NCBI GenBank assembly: GCA_964352425.1
Contig: CAYGRZ010000003.1
Location: 21,077 to 85,076, forward strand
DNA length: 64,000 bases
Reading direction: 5' to 3'
Source: an uncultured Planctomycetia bacterium
Lineage (GTDB): Bacteria > Omnitrophota > Gorgyraeia > 2-01-FULL-45-10
In this document: positions 36,909-44,925 of the stretch, piece after piece
Layout of the letters: each line of letters starts with the position of its first letter
Position numbering within the stretch: position 1 is the stretch's first letter
Notes under the pieces: generated by a model
What the model was told of the DNA's origin: nothing
The model's database searches: none
The model's input: the letters and a program-made list of their open reading frames with translations, nothing else
Made by a program: the position numbers and the translations under genes

Positions 36909-37850
36909 TTATCCGCTGATGGATCTGAAATAGGCTACGGTCCGCTCGAGCCCGGTCGCGAGATCCACCTTCGGCGCCCAGCGCAGAAGCTTCTTCGCCT
37001 TTGTGATGTCCGGACACCGGACCTTGGGATCGTCGACAGGCAGGCCCTCGAACACGATTTTGCTCTTGCTACGGGAAATCTTGATGATCGCATGAGCCAG
37101 CTCAAGCAGCGTCATCTCGTTCGGGTTGCCGATATTCACGGGATAATGCGCGCTTGAGAGGAACAGCTTGTAGATACCGCTGACGAGGTCCGATACGTAA
37201 CAGAAGCTGCGCGTCTGCCGGCCGCTGCCGTAGACAGTAATGGGTCTATTCTTGAGCGCTTGGCCGATAAAGTTCGGTATCGCCCTGCCATCCTCTTCCC
37301 GCATCCTTTCGCCGTATGTATTGAATATGCGCACGATCCTGGTGTCGACGCCGTGGTACCGGTGGTACGCCATCGTCATCGCCTCGGCGAAACGCTTCGC
37401 CTCGTCGTAGACGCCGCGGGGGCCGATGGGATTGACGTTCCCCCAGTATTCCTCGTACTGCGGATTGACCAGCGGATCGCCGTAGACTTCGCTCGTCGAT
37501 GCCAGGAGGAATCGCGCTCTCTTCTCTTTCGCCACGCCCAGGGCGTTATGCGTGCCGAGCGAGCCGACCTTGAGGGTCTGGATGGGAAGCTTGAGATAAT
37601 CGATCGGGCTTGCAGGCGAGGCAAAATGCAGGACATAGTCGACCCGCCCCTTCACGTCGATATACGTCGTGACATTATGCTTGGCGAACTCGAAATCGCG
37701 GTTCTTCAGGTTGTGCCGGATATTCTCCATCTTTCCCGTCAGGAGATTGTCCATACAGATGACGCGATGGCCCTTCGCGAGGAAGAGGTCGCACAGATGG
37801 CTTCCTATGAATCCCGCGCCGCCCGTTATCAATACTGTTTTTTTCGCCAC
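36909..37850 (-). CDS. UDP-glucuronate decarboxylase (UDP-xylose synthase, UXS/ArnA-decarboxylase-like SDR)
   Basis: 313 aa with a GTG start. [18 protein letters not shown]...YDEAKRFAE is a near-canonical UXS signature. Confidence 0.75.
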
Positions 37851-37943
37851 CCCACACCTTCTTATCTTTTAACAATACAAACTATTTTCTTTGCAGCATA
37901 CGCACCCAAACCATTCCCTGTGAAAACAAAAGAAGGTGTGGGG
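37850..37943 (-). repeat. Perfect 14-bp inverted repeat (ccccacaccttctt / aagaaggtgtgggg) bracketing the whole intergenic spacer
   Basis: Arms at 37850..37863 and 37930..37943. One arm abuts the epimerase stop codon and the other contains the SD (AAGAAGG) and the first base of the GTG start of the UXS gene. Confidence 0.7.
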
Positions 37944-38876
37944 TTATTTGTTCCTGAACCACTCGACCGTGCGCGCGAGCCCTTCCTCAAATCCTATTAT
38001 TTTTTTCATCCGCAGCATGCGCTTCATCCTGCTGATATCGGCATACGTCTTGCGCACGTCACCCCGCCTTTTCGGCGCATATTTCGGCTTGATATCCGTC
38101 CCGAGTATTTTGTTAAGCTCATTGACGATGTCAATGACCGATACGGTCGTGCCGCAGGCGACATTGAATACCTCGCCCGATATCCCGGGCACGACACATG
38201 AATTCAGGTTCGCCGCAACGACATTTCCCACGAACGTGAAGTCCCTGGACTGCTTGCCGTCCCATTCGACGATCGGAGACTTGCCCTTCATTATCTCGAA
38301 GAGGAATGCCGGTATGACCGCGGAGTACTTCGACTCCGGATTCTGCCGGGGGCCGAAGACGTTGAAGTAGCGCAGCGAGACCGTCTCGAGACCGAATGTC
38401 CTGGCGAATGTAATGCAGTAATTCTCGGCGGCCAGTTTCGAAACACCGTACGGTGAGATCGGCTTCGGCAGGTCGGTCTCTTTCTGGGGAAAGCTCCTGG
38501 CGTCACCATAGGCAGAACTTGACGAGGCATACACGACCCGTTTTACACCCGCCGCCTTGGCTTCGAATAGGACATTTAACGTACCGTTCACATTAATATC
38601 ATTGGTCGTGAATGGATCATCGACAGATTTCGGGACTGAGCGGAGCGCCGCCTGGTGGATGACGTAGTCGACGCCTCTCAGGGCCTTCCTAAGCGTACTC
38701 CTGTTCCTTATATCCCCCTTAATGAACGTGATCTTTCCCGAAAAAGGCTTCAGGTTCTCCATCTTTCCGGTGATAAGGCTGTCGATAACCCTGACTCTCT
38801 TCTTCCGCCTTACGAGCTCCTCGACGATATTCGAACCTATGAATCCGGCTCCGCCGGTAACGAGATAGTGTGCCAT
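37944..38876 (-). CDS. NAD-dependent sugar epimerase (UDP-GlcNAc/UDP-glucose 4-epimerase-like, WbpP/CapD-like)
   Basis: 310 aa. [21 protein letters not shown] and YGVSKLAAE (YxxxK). Confidence 0.75.
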   Translation of the reverse strand: MAHYLVTGGAGFIGSNIVEELVRRKKRVRVIDSLITGKMENLKPFSGKITFIKGDIRNRSTLRKALRGVDYVIHQAALRSVPKSVDDPFTTNDINVNGTLNVLFEAKAAGVKRVVYASSSSAYGDARSFPQKETDLPKPISPYGVSKLAAENYCITFARTFGLETVSLRYFNVFGPRQNPESKYSAVIPAFLFEIMKGKSPIVEWDGKQSRDFTFVGNVVAANLNSCVVPGISGEVFNVACGTTVSVIDIVNELNKILGTDIKPKYAPKRRGDVRKTYADISRMKRMLRMKKIIGFEEGLARTVEWFRNK

Positions 38877-38878
38877 AG

Positions 38879-41647
38879 TTATAGTTTTATGATGCTCTTC
38901 CTTTCCTTCTGGTTCTTCAGGACGTTCCGCGTATCGACGATCAGTTTCGAATGCTCGACGATAAAATCGTAGTCGACGTCCGTGTGATCGGTCACGATGA
39001 CGACGCAGTCCGCGCCCCTGAACGTTTCTTTATCGAATTTGGCAAGGTCAAGATTGATCTCGCCTATCTTAAGATACGGGAAGAGCGCGTCGTAGTACGA
39101 GACATCGGCGCCCTTATGCATGAGGAACTCTATGATCTCAAGCGCGGGAGACTCGCGCAGGTCCTTCACGTCCTTCTTGTACGCCACGCCGACGACGAGG
39201 ACCTTCGATCCGTTCAGCGCCTTCTTATGGTTGTTCAGGCCTTCGGTCACTTTGGAGACGACATAGTGCGGCATCTCGGAGTTGACCTGGGCGGCGAGGT
39301 CGATGAACCGCGCCTCGAACCCGTACATCCTCGCCTTCCACGAAAGATAGATGGGATCGACGGGTATACAGTTATGCGTCAATACACCGTACGACGTCAC
39401 GAAGGTATTTGTGTCACGCACTTCCATCGAATAAACATTATCCGCGTTCGAACGGGATATGCTCTTTATTTTAACGGCGGCAAAATCTTTATATAGTTTG
39501 AATGACTTGTTTGAAACCACTCGTTTTTTATTCTTAAAGTAAGTCCCTATCTTTTTTGATTTCTCTCCGAGGAATACAGTTTTGAGCATTTTCAACTGCT
39601 CACTGCCGAATATATTGAGCAGATTCTTCCTTTTCTTAAGGGTCGGAACAAACCCGAGGTCCTGCAATAGCAGCAGCACTTGATTAAAGAGAATGTCGCT
39701 TGAGGTGAAATAATTTACCACTGCGGCATTGTTATTGTGGCAATACTTTTTGCCCCTCTTAAAATAAGTCCTTTGCAGGTTTGAGTAATCTACGCCTCCG
39801 TCGCCGCGCAAGATGCCCATGAGGAGATTCAGCTTCAATTCTTTCGGAAAAAGCAGAAACCTGTCCGGTATTTTCATCGCGTAGGAATTGATACCGCATT
39901 TTAAGATATCCCTTAAAAGATATCCAAAAATAGAAGATGATATCTTAATACATGCGCTTTTCCATATCTTTGATTTATATACCGAGTAAGTTATGCCTCT
40001 TTCTTTTAAGAATAAAATGACATCCGTGATATATTCCGTCTCGTTCGAATTAAACGTCAGCCTGGTTCTTATCGAACCATCCAGAGTTATACATCCTTCA
40101 CTTAAATAGTAGCCGATGAATCTGCTGAAATCTTCGTCTATCTCAATAACGGCCGGAACGCTCTGGAATGATGGGCCTCTACCTGTAACTAATAAGAGAT
40201 CTTCCCTATCAACTGCCCAGGACGTCTTCTTCTCTAGCGACAGGTAAACGCTTAATGGTAGAGAGTTGTCCCTTATGTAATCGCGCACCTTATCTTTTTC
40301 AGAAGGCTCAGTATTTTTGTATATAACATCTCTATAGGACGACCATTCAAAGTCTTTGCCTTTCAAGCGGACGCCTTTCACGAGATCGTTATCTCTTAAA
40401 AAATCTATCATATCTATCCGCAAGTCGCTCGATTTTGTCAACGATTTTGGCATGGTAAGAATTACGGGTATCTCATCGTTAATTTCAAGCTCTTCGGCGA
40501 ATTTAACCCCCATAGCGCCGTCTTTCGCGACCATCACCGGATGCTTTGGAGTAACGCAAAATTCACGCCTGTCCGCCAGCATGATATTCAACATATCGCC
40601 TTTATAAGGCCTTTCGGAAAGTATGCCTATCTCCTTAAAACAAGGCTCTGCCTTTACCACATCGTAAGAAAATATTTCTTTCGCATTAGGCCTTATAAAT
40701 GTTGTGCCTCTGAGATCGTGCATTCGGGATTGGGGGTCATCCTTAGACTCCTTAACAAAATCCGATATTTTAATAACTCGTAACTCGCTACCATCCTTCT
40801 CTTTCACGAATATTTGCTCGTCTTTACCAAGGCAGTGCCCACCTACCCCGGGCCCCGGATAGAACGGCATGAAGCCGTAGGGCTTCGTCTTGGCCGCGTC
40901 GATCACTTCCCACACGTCGATCTTGAGCCTGTCGCACATGAGCATGAGCTCGTTCACCATGCCGATATTGACGATCCTGAACGTGTTCTCGAGGAGCTTC
41001 ACCATCTCGGCGACTTTTGCCGACGAGACGGGGACTATCTTCTCAAGCGCCTGCTCGTAGAGGAGCTTCGCCAGGTCCGTAGAGTTCTTCGAAATGCCGC
41101 CGATGATCTTCGGCGTGTTCTTCGTATCATACTTCGGATTACCGGGATCGATGCGCTCGGGTGAGAAGGCAAGATAAAAATCCTTCCCTTCCTTCCAGAG
41201 GTCCTCTTCAAGGATCGGGAGCATAACCTCCTCGGTCGTTCCGGGATACGTCGTGGATTCAAGAACGATTATCTGGCCACGCTTCATGTGCCTCTTTATG
41301 TTCCTGACCGCAGAGACGATGAACGAGACATCCGGCTCTTTCGTCTTATAGAGCGGTGTCGGCACGCAGATGATCACCGCGTCGAGGTCTTTTATTACGC
41401 TGAAATCGGTCGTGACCGCGAGCGACTTGTTCTTCCTGACCAGGATGAGATCCGACTGCTGCACGTCGAGGATGTATGACTCGCCCTTCTGGATCTTTGC
41501 CACCCGGTCCTTGTCGATGTCTATTCCGTGTACCTTAAACCCGCACTTCGCGAATGTCACGGCAAGCGGTAGCCCCACATAGCCGAGGCCGATGATGCCG
41601 ATCTTCGCCTTCTTGCTTGAAATCTTCTTCTTCAGTTCATTTAACAT
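38879..41647 (-). CDS. UDP-N-acetyl-D-hexosamine (ManNAc/GlcNAc) 6-dehydrogenase, WecC/WbpA/Cap5O family, with an intein inserted at the catalytic Cys
   Basis: 922 aa. The N-extein (1-271) has the NAD-binding KIGIIGLGYVGLPLAV motif and ends ...GPGVGGH. The C-extein (760-922) starts CIPVDPIYLSW. Joined, these give the family signature GVGGHCIPVDP. Combined extein length is 434 aa. Confidence 0.8.
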   Translation of the reverse strand: MLNELKKKISSKKAKIGIIGLGYVGLPLAVTFAKCGFKVHGIDIDKDRVAKIQKGESYILDVQQSDLILVRKNKSLAVTTDFSVIKDLDAVIICVPTPLYKTKEPDVSFIVSAVRNIKRHMKRGQIIVLESTTYPGTTEEVMLPILEEDLWKEGKDFYLAFSPERIDPGNPKYDTKNTPKIIGGISKNSTDLAKLLYEQALEKIVPVSSAKVAEMVKLLENTFRIVNIGMVNELMLMCDRLKIDVWEVIDAAKTKPYGFMPFYPGPGVGGHCLGKDEQIFVKEKDGSELRVIKISDFVKESKDDPQSRMHDLRGTTFIRPNAKEIFSYDVVKAEPCFKEIGILSERPYKGDMLNIMLADRREFCVTPKHPVMVAKDGAMGVKFAEELEINDEIPVILTMPKSLTKSSDLRIDMIDFLRDNDLVKGVRLKGKDFEWSSYRDVIYKNTEPSEKDKVRDYIRDNSLPLSVYLSLEKKTSWAVDREDLLLVTGRGPSFQSVPAVIEIDEDFSRFIGYYLSEGCITLDGSIRTRLTFNSNETEYITDVILFLKERGITYSVYKSKIWKSACIKISSSIFGYLLRDILKCGINSYAMKIPDRFLLFPKELKLNLLMGILRGDGGVDYSNLQRTYFKRGKKYCHNNNAAVVNYFTSSDILFNQVLLLLQDLGFVPTLKKRKNLLNIFGSEQLKMLKTVFLGEKSKKIGTYFKNKKRVVSNKSFKLYKDFAAVKIKSISRSNADNVYSMEVRDTNTFVTSYGVLTHNCIPVDPIYLSWKARMYGFEARFIDLAAQVNSEMPHYVVSKVTEGLNNHKKALNGSKVLVVGVAYKKDVKDLRESPALEIIEFLMHKGADVSYYDALFPYLKIGEINLDLAKFDKETFRGADCVVIVTDHTDVDYDFIVEHSKLIVDTRNVLKNQKERKSIIKL
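39371..40834 (-). mobile_element. Intein (488 aa) with LAGLIDADG homing-endonuclease domain
   Basis: It begins with Cys (CLGKDEQIFVKEKDGSELRVI, block A) and has block B TPKHPV. It carries two LAGLIDADG-like motifs (FIGYYLSEGC and LLMGILRGDGG). It ends ...YGVLTHN (blocks F/G) and is followed by the +1 Cys of the extein. Confidence 0.7.
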
Positions 41648-43658: not shown

Positions 43659-44399
43659 TTACAGTACGCATTTCTGCGCGGGCCGTTTCGCGACGAGGTT
43701 ATTCGCCTTTAAGAGCGATTCGAACGTCCCGGCGTCGGTCCACCAGCCGTCGAGGACGCTGTATTCGAGCTCACCCCGCTTCAGGTACGCGGAATTAACA
43801 TCCGTTATCTCGAGCTCTCCGCGGTGCGAGGGTTTGAGCGTCTTTATGATATCGAAGACCTTGTTATCGTACATATAGATGCCGGTCACGGCGTATTTCG
43901 ATTTCGGCCGCTTCGGCTTCTCTTCGATCGAAGAAAGCTCCTTGCCCTTGAAGCCCACGACGCCGAACCGTTCCGGGTCCGGGACTTTCTTTATAAGGAT
44001 CCTCGCGCCCTTCTTCTGCGCCCTGAAGGCGTCGACGTGTTTTGCGATTGTTTTTTCGATGATGTTGTCGCCGAGCATGACGACGATCCTGTCATTGTCC
44101 GCGAAATGGCGCGCCAGCCCGAGGGCCTGCGCGATGCCGCCCTCGCCTTCCTGGTAGGTGTAATTGATATGCATCAGGCCGAATTCTTTACCGTCGCCCA
44201 GCAGGCGCAGGAACTCGCCGGCATGCATACCGCCGGTCACGATAAGGATGTCCTTTATCCCGGCGTCGACCAGCGTCTGGATCGGGTAATAGATCATCGG
44301 CTTATTAAAAACTGGCAATAGATGTTTGTTGCTTATTTTTGTAAGCGGAGCCAACCTCGTCCCCAGGCCGCCGGCAAGAATGACGCCTTTCAGTCCCAT
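43659..44399 (-). CDS. rmlA: Glucose-1-phosphate thymidylyltransferase-like sugar nucleotidyltransferase (RmlA, short form)
   Basis: 246 aa. MGLKGVILAGGLGTRLAPLTKISNKHLLPVFNKPMIYYPI is a canonical RmlA N-terminus. Confidence 0.7.
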   Translation of the reverse strand: MGLKGVILAGGLGTRLAPLTKISNKHLLPVFNKPMIYYPIQTLVDAGIKDILIVTGGMHAGEFLRLLGDGKEFGLMHINYTYQEGEGGIAQALGLARHFADNDRIVVMLGDNIIEKTIAKHVDAFRAQKKGARILIKKVPDPERFGVVGFKGKELSSIEEKPKRPKSKYAVTGIYMYDNKVFDIIKTLKPSHRGELEITDVNSAYLKRGELEYSVLDGWWTDAGTFESLLKANNLVAKRPAQKCVL

Positions 44400-44402
44400 G
44401 TG

Positions 44403-44497
44403 CTATTTCCTCCAGTCATAAAATAGGGGACAGCGCCCTATTTTCCAGTCCTATTTAGAGAAAATAGGGCGCTGTCCCCTATTTTCCCCAGTCATAG
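44403..44497. repeat. Perfect 25-bp palindrome with 16-nt spacer, flanked by 9-bp direct repeats (MITE/REP-like or operator array)
   Basis: Arms at 44420..44444 (aaaataggggacagcgccctatttt) and 44461..44485 (exact reverse complement). Direct repeat ccagtcata at 44412..44420 and 44489..44497. The motif ctattttcc(cc)agtc recurs three times. Confidence 0.7.
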
Positions 44498-44925
44498 GGT
44501 ATATCGTTATCATACGCGTCGACCCTGTATTCGTCAGGAACTTTAGCATTATACGGGACCGTCACCGTATTGATAACGACCGCCTCGGTGGAGCTGGCAC
44601 ACTTGAAACCGTGGTAGACCAGCTTCGGTATGTGGATGAGCATCGGGTCATCCGGGCTTACGACGAATTCGTTCACCTCGCCGAACGTCGGCGAGCCCGG
44701 TCTGGCGTCGTAGAGGGCGAGCTTCATCCGCCCCGATATGCAGGTAAAATTATCGTCCTGCTTCTTGTGGAAATGCCAGGCCTTGACCACGCCGGGCAGC
44801 GCCGTCGTCATATAGACCTGGCCGAACTTCTCGAACATCTCGTCGTCGCAGCGCAGGATCTCCATCAGGCGCCCGCGGTCGTCCGGAACAACTTTAAGCT
44901 TTTTGACCTTCACACCTTCTATCAT
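44479..44925 (-). CDS. rmlC: Cupin-fold dTDP-sugar epimerase/isomerase (RmlC / FdtA-like)
   Basis: 148 aa small cupin with an HFH motif (VKAWHFHKKQDDNF). It is in operon context with rmlA, rmlB and rmlD. Shorter than typical RmlC. Confidence 0.5.
   Translation of the reverse strand: MIEGVKVKKLKVVPDDRGRLMEILRCDDEMFEKFGQVYMTTALPGVVKAWHFHKKQDDNFTCISGRMKLALYDARPGSPTFGEVNEFVVSPDDPMLIHIPKLVYHGFKCASSTEAVVINTVTVPYNAKVPDEYRVDAYDNDIPYDWGK

What the first reader, a model, noticed from the sequence alone, without database searches (positions are those of the whole stretch)
44403..44497. MITE/REP-like palindromic element between rmlA and rmlC: perfect 25-bp inverted repeat flanked by 9-bp direct repeats
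The 79-nt rmlC-rmlA spacer contains aaaataggggacagcgccctatttt and its exact reverse complement separated by 16 nt. ccagtcata is duplicated immediately outside each arm, like a target-site duplication. The motif ctattttcc(cc)agtc recurs three times. This looks like a footprint of a miniature inverted-repeat element inserted into the rml operon, or like a composite operator. As RNA it forms a very stable 25-bp hairpin inside a polycistronic message, which could act as a processing or attenuation site.
Basis: seen in the sequence. Interest (0 to 1): 0.55.

Follow-up and report, generated by a model that had tools for sequence, protein, structure and literature searches.

The report
Mobile hairpin pair inside rml operon
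The palindrome between rmlC and rmlA is a recently inserted copy of a small mobile DNA element, a pair of inverted 25-base hairpins of the REP/REPIN type. The same hairpin recurs in many uncultured bacteria next to a tyrosine (Y1) transposase gene, so this is a real but fairly ordinary kind of genomic parasite.

Summary
Window 44420-44485 holds a perfect 26-bp inverted repeat with a 14-nt loop, and it is flanked by an 18-nt imperfect direct repeat (16/18).

It is an insertion. Six loci from four relatives, including one with a near-identical junction, have rmlC's stop and rmlA's ATG only 3 nt apart. The window has 76 extra bases: 58 nt of element plus a second copy of rmlC's last 5 codons and stop.

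Each arm is itself a 9-bp-stem hairpin, AAAATAGGG-GACAGCG-CCCTATTTT. These are labelled Omnitrophota, Planctomycetes, Smithella, Elusimicrobia, Nitrospirae and others. In 63 of 126 elements the core forms a doublet in the same H…H' order, with variable spacers. In six MAGs the pair brackets a 226-aa Y1 (IS200-like, RAYT-like) transposase gene. The core GGGGACAG fits the GGGGWSAS motif published for TIRYT/"TIRtron" repeats.

Flanking duplication is not a family trait (2 of 124 elements). Here it keeps rmlC's stop codon and rmlA's ribosome-binding site. No transposase gene and no second copy lie in the window.

Verdict: a REPIN-like, non-autonomous element and a new member of a known kind. Effects on RNA are untested.

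The parts
44420..44444 (+). Hairpin unit H: AAAATAGGG-GACAGCG-CCCTATTTT (9-bp stem, 7-nt loop). It contains GGGGACAG, which fits the GGGGWSAS motif. It forms the left arm of the long inverted repeat.
   Evidence: As ssDNA it folds at -6.2 kcal/mol.
44445..44460 (.). Spacer, i.e. the loop of the long hairpin: CCAGTCCTATTTAGAG. It holds a third, degenerate copy of the target (CCAGTCCTA, 44445-44453). It is 13/16 identical to the spacer of the doublet in relatives L133/L134, but in the opposite orientation relative to the genes.
44461..44485 (+). Hairpin unit H' (reverse complement of H): AAAATAGGG-CGCTGTC-CCCTATTTT. It forms the right arm. On the mRNA (minus) strand, its foot supplies rmlC's stop codon TAG (44479-44481).
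   Evidence: The foot TAG is the stop of the upstream gene in 25 of 172 family copies.
44403..44420 (-). Direct-repeat copy next to rmlA, read on the mRNA strand as TATGACTGGAGGAAATAG. This is the ancestral rmlC end, now non-coding. It carries rmlA's Shine-Dalgarno GGAGG (44409-44413), 9 nt before the ATG (44397-44399).
   Evidence: It matches the empty site of L135, TATGACTGGAGGAAATAGcgcATGGG, and those of L003, L006 and L131.
44479..44496 (-). Direct-repeat copy that is now the functional 3' end of rmlC, read on the mRNA strand as TATGACTGGGGAAAATAG (Y D W G K stop). Relatives have Y D W R K stop.
44403..44478 (.). The 76 nt that are extra relative to empty sites: 58 nt of element plus one 18-nt target copy. 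The exact placement within 44403-44496 is arbitrary because of the repeat.
   Evidence: Alignment A1.
44479..44925 (-). Upstream gene: a 148-aa rmlC-like cupin (dTDP-4-dehydrorhamnose 3,5-epimerase family).
43659..44399 (-). Downstream gene: rmlA (glucose-1-phosphate thymidylyltransferase, 246 aa), followed by rmlB and rmlD.

Best explanation
The feature is a non-autonomous mobile element of the REP/REPIN type. Two inverted copies (H then H') of a 25-nt hairpin are separated by a short spacer.

The hairpin belongs to a family that brackets, in the same H…H' order, the gene of a ~226-aa Y1 (HUH, IS200-like) tyrosine transposase. This enzyme is of the RAYT-like/'TIRYT' kind. Such enzymes cut and rejoin single-stranded DNA at the foot of hairpins they recognise. 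Gene-less doublets are presumed to be copied in trans (inferred).

In this lineage the doublet landed exactly at the TAG stop codon of rmlC. In relatives that codon lies 3 nt before rmlA's ATG, and its sequence (AAATAG) mimics the hairpin foot.

The event left, or was followed by, an 18-nt duplication of rmlC's last five codons plus stop. As a result rmlC still ends Y-D-W-x-K-stop, using the hairpin's own TAG. rmlA keeps its GGAGG ribosome-binding site at the ancestral spacing. That is probably why the insertion survived.

Expected consequences (inferred, untested):
- rmlC-rmlA translational coupling is lost.
- The polycistronic mRNA carries a 26-bp perfect stem that begins in the stop codon.
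- Like E. coli REPs, such a stem could slow 3'-exonucleolytic decay of the upstream part, offer an RNase III site, or hinder termination of rmlC translation.
For: **It is an insertion.**
- Six loci from four relatives have a 3-nt rmlC-rmlA spacer.
- One of them, L135, reads TATGACTGGAGGAAATAGcgcATGGGACTAAAAGGCGT. That is 36/38 identical to the window's right-hand repeat copy plus the rmlA start.

**It is a repeated family.**
- One MAG (CAZACW01) contributes 24 of those loci.
- The conserved unit is aAA-ATAGGGGACAGCGCCCTAT-TTt. Nothing is conserved beyond it.

**Doublet architecture.**
- The census gives 63 H-H', 0 H'-H and 61 single units.
- Spacers vary but fall into related subfamilies within a genome.

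**Link to a transposase.**
- All six complete Y1 genes found next to the hairpin have H 51-166 nt upstream and H' 0-21 nt downstream.
- The proteins match Pfam PF01797 (E = 2e-16). Their best NCBIfam model is REP-associated tyrosine transposase, at 65 bits against 27 bits for IS200.
- They carry NHVH, WQ and YIERNP motifs. Y---NP is the class-2 signature in PMC6006769.
- GGGGACAG fits the GGGGWSAS motif of the inverted repeats that flank TIRYT genes (PMC3733652; PMC6006769).

**Position is typical for the family.**
- In 25 of 172 hairpins the foot TAG is the stop of a frame of at least 100 codons.
- 36 elements fill a short stop-to-start junction between co-directional ORFs.
- Most elements lie outside long ORFs.

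**Presence/absence among close relatives.**
- L133/L134 (rmlC 89.7% nt identity to the window) carry a sister doublet at the same junction.
- L136 (97.8% to L133) and L135 lack it.
Against: - No Y1 transposase gene and no second hairpin occur in the 64-kb window. The rest of the source genome could not be searched, so mobilisation in trans in this organism is unproven.
- Y1 transposases are not known to make target duplications, and 122 of 124 family members show none. The 18-nt duplication is therefore not explained by the standard mechanism.
- The Y1 proteins score below NCBIfam's RAYT cut-off (65 against 80 bits).
- The hairpin foot is ATAG, not the classical GTAG.
- No transposition, excision or RNA data exist for this family.
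- Phylum labels of the MAGs were not verified independently.
Confidence: 0.85

Rival explanations
1. A classical MITE: a deletion derivative of a DDE-transposase insertion sequence. The 26-bp arms would be terminal inverted repeats and CCAGTCATA a 9-bp target-site duplication.
For: Perfect inverted arms and a 9-nt exact direct repeat lie close to both arms.
Against: - Flanking direct repeats exceed the control in only 2 of 124 family members.
- The interior differs in sequence and length between copies, with 8-84 nt between the 19-mer cores.
- The arms are self-complementary hairpins that also occur singly (61 of 126 elements).
- The only protein gene found framed by them is a Y1/HUH transposase.
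- The repeat here is 18 nt long, not 9, and it overlaps an arm.
Confidence: 0.03
2. A locus-specific regulatory site that evolved in place to control rmlA-rmlB-rmlD expression. It could be an operator for a dimeric regulator, a transcription attenuator, or a terminator.
For: - It lies inside an operon, immediately upstream of rmlA's ribosome-binding site.
- The RNA stem is very stable.
- Each small hairpin has an A-tract/T-tract shape reminiscent of a bidirectional terminator.
Against: - It is absent from the same junction in close and distant relatives.
- The identical hairpin occurs at unrelated loci in about 55 MAGs.
- The terminator scan does not call it, and the long stem is not followed by a U-run.
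- No Rfam family matches above threshold.
Confidence: 0.03
3. The hairpins belong to the repeat family, but this copy was not placed by a transposase. It arose by replication template switching or microhomology-mediated recombination. The switch would use the target's own CCCTAT…AAATAG, which are the two halves of the hairpin stem. Template switching would explain the 18-nt duplication and the third target-like copy in the spacer.
For: - The ancestral target CCCTATGACTGGAGGAAATAG contains both stem halves.
- Three tandem target-like units are visible.
- Partial tandem copies of the foot are enriched next to family members: ATAGGG occurs 14 times against 1.8 expected.
- L133 differs from L134 by a 13-nt tandem expansion of the foot.
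- Y1 enzymes do not normally create duplications.
Against: - The predicted junctions do not match exactly. Extra TTTAT and TTTCTCTAAATAG segments remain unexplained.
- A sister doublet with a related spacer sits at the same site in L133/L134 without the clean duplication. That fits site-preferring insertion of a pre-formed doublet better.
- Spacer subfamilies show that doublets are copied as units.
Confidence: 0.1

Closest known systems
REP / BIME elements and REPINs mobilised by RAYTs (E. coli REP-BIME; Pseudomonas fluorescens REPINs; Nunvar 2010 PMC2817692; Bertels & Rainey 2011 PMC3116915)
   Same: - The unit is a short palindrome that occurs singly or as inverted doublets forming a longer hairpin.
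- It is mostly extragenic and is multi-copy in some genomes.
- The cognate Y1 transposase gene is bracketed by inverted units.
- The repeat end often supplies a TAG stop codon to the neighbouring gene, as reported for GTAG REPs (PMC3733652).
   Different: - The foot is ATAG and lies inside a perfectly symmetrical stem, rather than being a GTAG tag at one end.
- The Y1 protein is longer (226 aa) and scores below the NCBIfam RAYT cut-off.
- The same 19-25 nt hairpin is shared by MAGs labelled as several phyla. REPIN-RAYT systems are described as lineage-specific and mostly vertically inherited (abstract of 10.1101/2022.05.22.493013).
- The window shows only 1 copy in 64 kb.
TIRtrons / TIRYT (TIR-associated tyrosine transposases; Di Nocera et al. 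2013, PMC3733652), approximately TnpA_Y1 subclass 2.1 of Quentin et al. 2018 (PMC6006769)
   Same: - A RAYT-like Y1 gene is flanked by inverted repeats that share GGGGWSAS. Here the core is GGGGACAG.
- The published repeats can be self-complementary, moderately abundant, and arranged as dimers or clusters.
- The proteins are long and carry Y---NP.
- The taxonomic distribution is patchy across phyla.
   Different: - Assignment to subclass 2.1 was not tested against reference sequences. No C-terminal HTH domain was detected by Pfam.
- Quentin et al. reported finding no REP-like sequences near subclass 2.1 genes. Here the flanking repeats are clear hairpins with many gene-less copies.
- This particular hairpin sequence was not found in the searchable literature.
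IS200/IS605 insertion sequences (e.g. IS608)
   Same: - The transposase is a Y1/HUH enzyme (PF01797).
- Recognition is of subterminal hairpins.
- Insertion next to a short specific sequence without target duplication is the family norm. That fits 122 of 124 copies here, and it fits the preference for sites ending in …ATAG (inferred).
   Different: - In IS200/IS605 both end hairpins lie on the same strand and differ in sequence. Here the two ends are inverted copies of one hairpin.
- No TnpB partner gene was seen.
- The NCBIfam IS200 score is only 27 bits against a cut-off of 55.
Bacterial MITEs with target-site duplication (Correia/NEMIS, ERIC, RUP)
   Same: It is a small palindromic insertion inside an operon that is co-transcribed and forms an RNA hairpin. 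This copy has flanking direct repeats.
   Different: The interior is not conserved, target-site duplication is not systematic, and no DDE parent element is evident.

Membership tests
REP / REPIN (RAYT-associated) | Short (about 20-40 nt) palindromic unit able to form a stem-loop | tested here: met
   The 25-nt unit has a 9-bp stem and a 7-nt loop.
REP / REPIN (RAYT-associated) | Many copies per genome, mostly extragenic | tested here: inconclusive
   Met in other genomes: 24 loci from MAG CAZACW01 and 10 from CAYZLU01 in a capped scan. 113 of 127 elements lie outside crude ORFs of at least 120 aa. In the window there is only one doublet in 64 kb.
REP / REPIN (RAYT-associated) | Inverted doublets that form a larger hairpin and are copied as a unit | tested here: met
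   63 H-H' against 0 H'-H arrangements. The doublet folds at -30 kcal/mol as ssDNA. Related spacer subfamilies occur within genomes.
REP / REPIN (RAYT-associated) | Cognate Y1 transposase gene flanked by the units in inverted orientation (REPtron) | tested here: met
   Six of six complete genes have H upstream and H' downstream. None is in the window itself.
REP / REPIN (RAYT-associated) | Conserved GT(A/G)G tetranucleotide at the 5' foot | tested here: not met
   The foot is ATAG. The three bases before it are A in 53%, 81% and 95% of 172 copies. The A of ATAG was fixed by the search pattern, so G variants would have been missed.
REP / REPIN (RAYT-associated) | Transposase reaches the curated RAYT model threshold (NCBIfam NF047646) | tested here: not met
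   65 bits against a cut-off of 80. It is nevertheless the best-scoring model, well above IS200 at 27 bits.
TIRtron / TIRYT (Di Nocera 2013) | Inverted repeats flanking the Y1 gene carry the motif GGGGWSAS | tested here: met
   The hairpin core is GGGGACAG. The motif is quoted from PMC3733652 and PMC6006769.
TIRtron / TIRYT (Di Nocera 2013) | RAYT-like but longer Y1 protein with HUH and Y---NP motifs (subclass 2.1 has a C-terminal HTH-like extension) | tested here: inconclusive
   The proteins are 226-228 aa with NHVH, WQ and YIERNP, and about 100 aa lie beyond the Y1 domain. No HTH domain was detected at E <= 10. No comparison with reference TIRYT sequences was possible.
MITE (DDE-type) | Fixed-length target-site duplication at every copy and a conserved internal sequence | tested here: not met
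   Only 2 of 124 elements have flanking repeats above the control. Spacers vary in sequence and length.
IS200/IS605 | Distinct left- and right-end hairpins on the same strand, and a transposase reaching the IS200 model threshold | tested here: not met
   The ends are inverted copies of one hairpin. The IS200 model scores 27 bits against a cut-off of 55.
Intrinsic terminator | G+C-rich stem followed directly by a U-run on the transcribed strand | tested here: not met
   The scan does not call it. After the 26-bp stem the mRNA reads AUGACUGG. Transcription read-through was not testable.

The most novel reading that the evidence does not exclude
The H…H' hairpin pair may be the end-signal of a horizontally spreading Y1-transposase system found across many phyla. 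It would combine three properties.

- It keeps a nearly invariant 25-nt hairpin while its transposase diverges to below 50% identity.
- It carries arbitrary cargo: nothing, about 200-290 nt of non-coding palindrome, or the transposase gene.
- It homes to gene ends that mimic its own foot (…AAATAG stop codons). This would explain two probably independent hits at the same rmlC-rmlA junction in sister lineages.

On this reading the occasional 16-24-nt duplication of the gene end is a product of a copy-in, template-switch step that 'heals' tightly coupled operon junctions. This would contradict the view that REPIN-RAYT systems are lineage-bound and vertically inherited.
Probability: 0.25. Interest if true: 0.6.

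Novelty: new member of a known kind. Interest (0 to 1): 0.4.

Why it matters
For the rml operon, a formerly translationally coupled gene pair is now separated by a very stable hairpin. The duplicated 18 nt show how such an insertion can be tolerated.

More broadly, REP/REPIN-RAYT biology has been worked out almost entirely in Proteobacteria. The mechanism of REPIN copying is still unknown. This family offers several things for that problem:
- filled and empty sites in close relatives;
- a clearly defined minimal unit;
- a cognate Y1 enzyme that could be expressed;
- an apparent preference for stop codons that mimic the hairpin foot.

If the MAG labels are right, it also suggests that a single hairpin/transposase pair is shared by uncultured anaerobes of several phyla. 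That bears on whether such systems are inherited vertically or spread horizontally.

Tried and rejected
- **Rfam.** A search of the element found only generic long-hairpin miRNA models far below threshold. Nothing was found for the larger cargo elements.
- **Terminator/promoter scan.** The element is not called.
- **Other copies in the window.** Searches with up to 3 mismatches, by stem pattern and by GGGGWSAS hairpin found none.
- **Y1 gene in the window.** tblastn found none.
- **Viral contigs.** There were 0 hits to the 19-mer, so there is no evidence for a phage vehicle.
- **Metagenome scans.** A scan for an empty allele with window-like flanks and a scan for the filled allele both gave 0 hits. 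These only show absence from the JGI collection. The informative alleles came from protein look-ups instead.
- **Target-site duplication as a family trait.** Tested and rejected.
- **Two successive single-hairpin insertions, each with a 9-bp duplication.** Considered because each unit in the window is flanked by CCAGTC(A/C)TA. It is not supported by any other copy. It is also weakened by the fact that the spacer is shared with L133/L134.
- **Recombination breakpoint at the junction.** Rejected for window versus L133, because rmlC, rmlA and rmlB have similar identity.
- **PDB sequence search with the Y1 protein.** No hit.
- **Pfam search for a C-terminal HTH.** None found.
- **Literature.** A string search for the hairpin core gave 0 papers. 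The paper on REPs near stop codons and trans-translation (Liang, Rudd & Deutscher 2015, cited from memory) could not be retrieved.

Full report
**1. The observation**

Window 44420-44444 reads AAAATAGGGGACAGCGCCCTATTTT, and 44461-44485 is its exact reverse complement. The repeat finder extends the arms to 26 nt at 100% complementarity, with 14 nt between them. No shuffle of the window produced a single match.

The 9-nt direct repeat CCAGTCATA is real. It is part of a longer 18-nt repeat, 44403-44420 and 44479-44496, 16/18 identical. A third, weaker copy (CCAGTCCTA) lies in the loop at 44445-44453.

Each arm is itself a hairpin: AAAATAGGG, a 7-nt loop, then CCCTATTTT. As direct repeats the two arms differ only in having the loop inverted. 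I call the two forms H (loop GACAGCG) and H' (loop CGCTGTC).

As RNA the region folds at -61.7 kcal/mol with z = -8.7. As ssDNA a single unit folds at about -6 kcal/mol and the doublet at -30 kcal/mol. The same sequence is found in an independent Logan assembly, L001, which is 99.98% identical to the window over its 5.7 kb.

**2. Context**

All genes here are on the minus strand. In order they are:
- a UDP-glucose dehydrogenase (46237-44942);
- a 148-aa rmlC-like cupin (44925-44479);
- the 79-nt spacer;
- rmlA (44399-43659), rmlB and rmlD;
- a second, intein-containing UDP-glucose dehydrogenase.

Homologues of the cupin are named as Candidatus Omnitrophota proteins.

On the mRNA strand the junction reads:

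…CCC TAT GAC TGG GGA AAA TAG | GGGACAGCGCCCTATTTTCTCTAAATAGGACTGGAAAATAGGGCGCTGTCCCCTATTT | TATGACTGGAGGAAATAG CAC ATG.

rmlC's stop codon is therefore the TAG in the foot of the hairpin. rmlA's GGAGG sits in the second repeat copy, 9 nt before the ATG.

**3. It is an insertion**

Look-ups of relatives by exact protein sequence gave the orthologous junctions.
- L003/L004/L005 (rmlC 84.6% aa identity), L006/L007 (79.9%) and L131 (81.9%) all have only 3 nt between stop and ATG (identities).
- The alignment shows a clean 76-nt gap in these relatives.
- L135, a member of the window protein's own 90% cluster, reads TATGACTGGAGGAAATAGcgcATGGGACTAAAAGGCGT. That is the window's right-hand repeat copy plus the rmlA start, 36/38 identical.

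The right copy is therefore the ancestral junction. The window gained 58 nt of element plus a second copy of rmlC's last five codons and stop (YDWRK* became YDWGK*).

**4. It belongs to a large repeat family**

- The hits come from about 55 assemblies. They are labelled Candidatus Omnitrophota, Planctomycetales/Planctomycetia, Smithella/Syntrophaceae/Deltaproteobacteria, Elusimicrobia, Nitrospiraceae, Aminicenantes, Actinomycetota and Gammaproteobacteria.
- One MAG (CAZACW01) contributes 24 loci, at least four of them on a single 58-kb contig.
- None of the hits is from the window's own genome.
- Across 172 copies the conserved unit is aAA-ATAGGGGACAGCGCCCTAT-TTt(t), and nothing is conserved outside it.
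- Allowing four mismatches for the partner unit, 63 of 126 elements are H-H' doublets. None is H'-H, 61 are single units, and 2 are same-orientation pairs.
- Spacers differ in sequence and length, with 8-84 nt between the 19-mer cores. Within a genome they fall into related subfamilies, so doublets appear to be copied as units.
- In CAZACW01 the same H…H' pair also encloses about 200-290 nt of non-coding, strongly palindromic cargo.

**5. The associated enzyme**

Several 'single' hairpins lie 50-60 nt upstream of an ORF that begins MPRLARI..PGLPHHITQRG.
- These 226-228-aa proteins match Pfam PF01797, Y1_Tnp (E = 2e-16). Their best NCBIfam model is REP-associated tyrosine transposase. It scores 65 bits, below the cut-off of 80 but well above IS200 at 27 bits.
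- They carry NHVH, WQ and YIERNP motifs. Y---NP is the class-2 (TnpA_REP-like) signature in Quentin et al. 2018 (PMC6006769).
- In all six loci with a complete gene, H lies 51-166 nt upstream and H' 0-21 nt downstream. This is the same polarity as the gene-less doublets. The six proteins are 47-85% identical to the L106 protein.
- The protein family is very large: at least 7,662 database proteins at E <= 1e-30, all named only 'transposase'.
- The window contains no such gene.

**6. What is already known**

Di Nocera et al. 2013 (PMC3733652) described RAYT-like genes flanked by inverted repeats. They named the units 'TIRtrons' and the enzymes 'TIRYT'. According to that paper:
- many of the repeats share the motif GGGGWSAS;
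- some are self-complementary, moderately abundant, and arranged in dimers;
- REP ends often supply a TAG stop codon to the flanking gene.

The hairpin core here, GGGGACAG, fits GGGGWSAS exactly. Quentin et al. 2018 equate TIRYT largely with TnpA_Y1 subclass 2.1. That subclass has long proteins and a patchy, multi-phylum distribution. They reported no REP-like sequences near those genes.

The present family is thus a clear hairpin-forming, REPIN-like example of that known class. I did not find this particular sequence in the searchable literature. Rfam has no matching family.

**7. Position and target**

- In 63 of 172 oriented hairpins, a frame of at least 100 codons reads into the outer side and stops within -20 to +16 nt of the core. 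In 25 of those the stop is the foot's own TAG. This is by far the largest single class.
- Thirty-six elements fill a short stop-to-start junction between co-directional ORFs. Co-directional neighbours dominate, 73 against 12 convergent and 5 divergent. The window's arrangement is therefore typical of the family.
- Partial direct copies of the foot are enriched in the outer flank: ATAGGG occurs 14 times against 1.8 expected.
- At the rml junction the foot-like sequence (A/G)G(A/G)AAATAG exists before insertion, in the empty sites of L006 and L135. At least here the element landed next to a sequence that mimics its own foot.
- I infer, but have not shown, a preference for …AAATAG. This would be analogous to the short target sequences of IS200/IS605 elements.

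**8. The duplication**

Flanking direct repeats above a cross-paired control occur in only two of 124 elements, the window and L081.

L081 has the same layout as the window. A doublet lies between the stop of one gene and the ATG of the next. It is flanked by an imperfect duplication of about 16-23 nt covering the upstream gene's last codons and stop. The copy next to the ATG looks like a compact ancestral junction, TAAgagctATG.

The duplication is therefore not a signature of the insertion chemistry. My reading is that insertions into tightly coupled junctions persist only when both gene ends are kept. Rare events that duplicate the gene end are the ones that survive. This is an inference.

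How the duplication arises is unresolved. The ancestral target contains both stem halves (CCCTAT…AAATAG), and the window can be read as three tandem target-like units joined by the hairpin loops. That suggests template switching, but the junctions do not fit exactly.

**9. Close relatives with a sister element**

L133 and L134 are 89.7%, 87% and 89% identical to the window in rmlC, rmlA and rmlB at the nucleotide level. They carry a doublet at the same junction.
- Their spacer, CCAATACTATTTAGAG, is 13/16 identical to the window's but in the opposite orientation relative to the genes.
- They have no clean 18-nt repeat.
- They have tandem foot copies on both sides.
- They have a different ribosome-binding site (AGGAG).
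- L133 has a further 13-nt tandem expansion of the foot.

L136 is 97.8% identical to L133 in rmlC. It lacks any hairpin and has an 18-nt spacer. L135 is empty.

Presence is therefore polymorphic among close relatives. The window and L133 elements are more simply explained as independent insertions of one doublet subfamily at a preferred site. The alternative is a single event followed by several losses and a loop inversion. I put this at roughly 60:40.

**10. Likely consequences**

These are inferred only.
- The ancestral 3-nt junction implies translational coupling, which is now lost. rmlA retains an accessible GGAGG at the ancestral spacing.
- The 26-bp perfect RNA stem starts inside rmlC's stop codon.
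- By analogy with E. coli REPs, it could protect upstream mRNA from 3' exonucleases or attenuate transcription. Those roles are cited in PMC3733652.
- It could also be cut by RNase III, or impede termination of rmlC translation. These last two points rest on my own knowledge, including Liang, Rudd & Deutscher 2015, which I could not retrieve.
- It is not called as an intrinsic terminator.

**11. Verdict**

The element is a REPIN-like doublet of a hairpin family tied to a RAYT-like/TIRYT Y1 transposase. It is a new member of a known kind.

Points of moderate interest:
- the clean set of filled and empty alleles;
- the duplication of the gene end;
- the preference for stop codons that match the foot;
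- the apparent sharing of one hairpin across MAGs of several phyla.

Main gaps:
- the rest of the source genome was not searched;
- no biochemical or RNA evidence exists;
- the MAG taxonomy was not verified.

Noticed in passing
L128:1948-2091 (also L130): In a relative with 83% rmlC identity, the same rmlC-rmlA junction holds a different palindromic insert. The spacer is 144 nt, with 31-nt arms built of CGTT(T/C)AT heptamers (1959-1989 and 2047-2077, 87% complementary) around a 57-nt centre. A new GGAG lies before the ATG.
   Followed up: partly
L002:3448-3790: In the relative with about 90% rmlC identity, rmlC is followed not by rmlA but by an ORF with a LAGLIDADG-like motif (…AWVLGLLVSDGFVRKNNASAYFGLKLSERD…) that runs to the contig end. 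With the REPIN and the heptamer palindrome, this makes three different inserts at one junction in three lineages. L002 is also mosaic relative to the window: the upstream 731-aa gene is 92.8% identical at the nucleotide level, but ugd is only about 72-76% identical.
   Followed up: partly
L136:562-585: L136 is 97.8% identical to L133 in rmlC. It has an 18-nt hairpin-free spacer, and the downstream gene starts MKGV… instead of MGLKGV…. This suggests a recombination boundary at this junction between near-identical strains.
   Followed up: no
window 37849-37944: A second, unrelated intergenic palindrome fills the whole 93-nt gap between two co-directional minus-strand ORFs (37944-38876 and 36909-37850). 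It has 26-nt arms, 88% complementary (ACCCCACACCTTCTTATCTTTTAACA / …GGTGTGGGGT), and a 44-nt loop. No other copy was found in the window or in the 136 fetched loci.
   Followed up: partly
window 38879-41647 (minus strand): The second UDP-glucose dehydrogenase gene carries an intein with a LAGLIDADG domain (922 aa). The orthologue in L003-L005 has it too. The one in L006/L007 is intein-free (434 aa).
   Followed up: no
L098:3521-3760, L100, L112, L121, L126 (MAG CAZACW01): H…H' pairs enclose about 200-290 nt of non-coding cargo with long internal palindromes (GGACGGCTTAACGGTGTTGC…GCAACACCGTTAAGCC). Some carry a nested second palindrome (AACCTCCACAACCCCGGAGGTTGTGATGG…). There is no Rfam match and no ORF of at least 100 aa.
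   Followed up: partly
L067 and L109 (Elusimicrobiaceae MAG), downstream of the exact hairpin: A Y1 transposase gene start (ATGCCAAGACTGGCAAGAATAGG…) runs straight into a degenerate hairpin (AAAATAGGTCGCTGTCCCC) after about 8 codons. The gene appears to be interrupted at an internal AGAATAG that resembles the hairpin foot.
   Followed up: no
L081:2469-2566: This is the only other family member with a flanking duplication. The last ~7 codons plus stop of the upstream gene are repeated on both sides of the doublet (TGCGCCGCCCGTTGAA / TGCGCCGCTTGTTGAA). Some of the differences between the copies are synonymous in the copy that is still coding.
   Followed up: partly
L071:5272-5296 and L134:680-701: The sequence just after the doublet is similar at two unrelated loci: aaCTATTTTAGGGAGaaaattATG and aCTATTTTAGGAGaataatATG. 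It is possible that some doublets carry an outward-facing ribosome-binding site, or the similarity may be coincidental.
   Followed up: no
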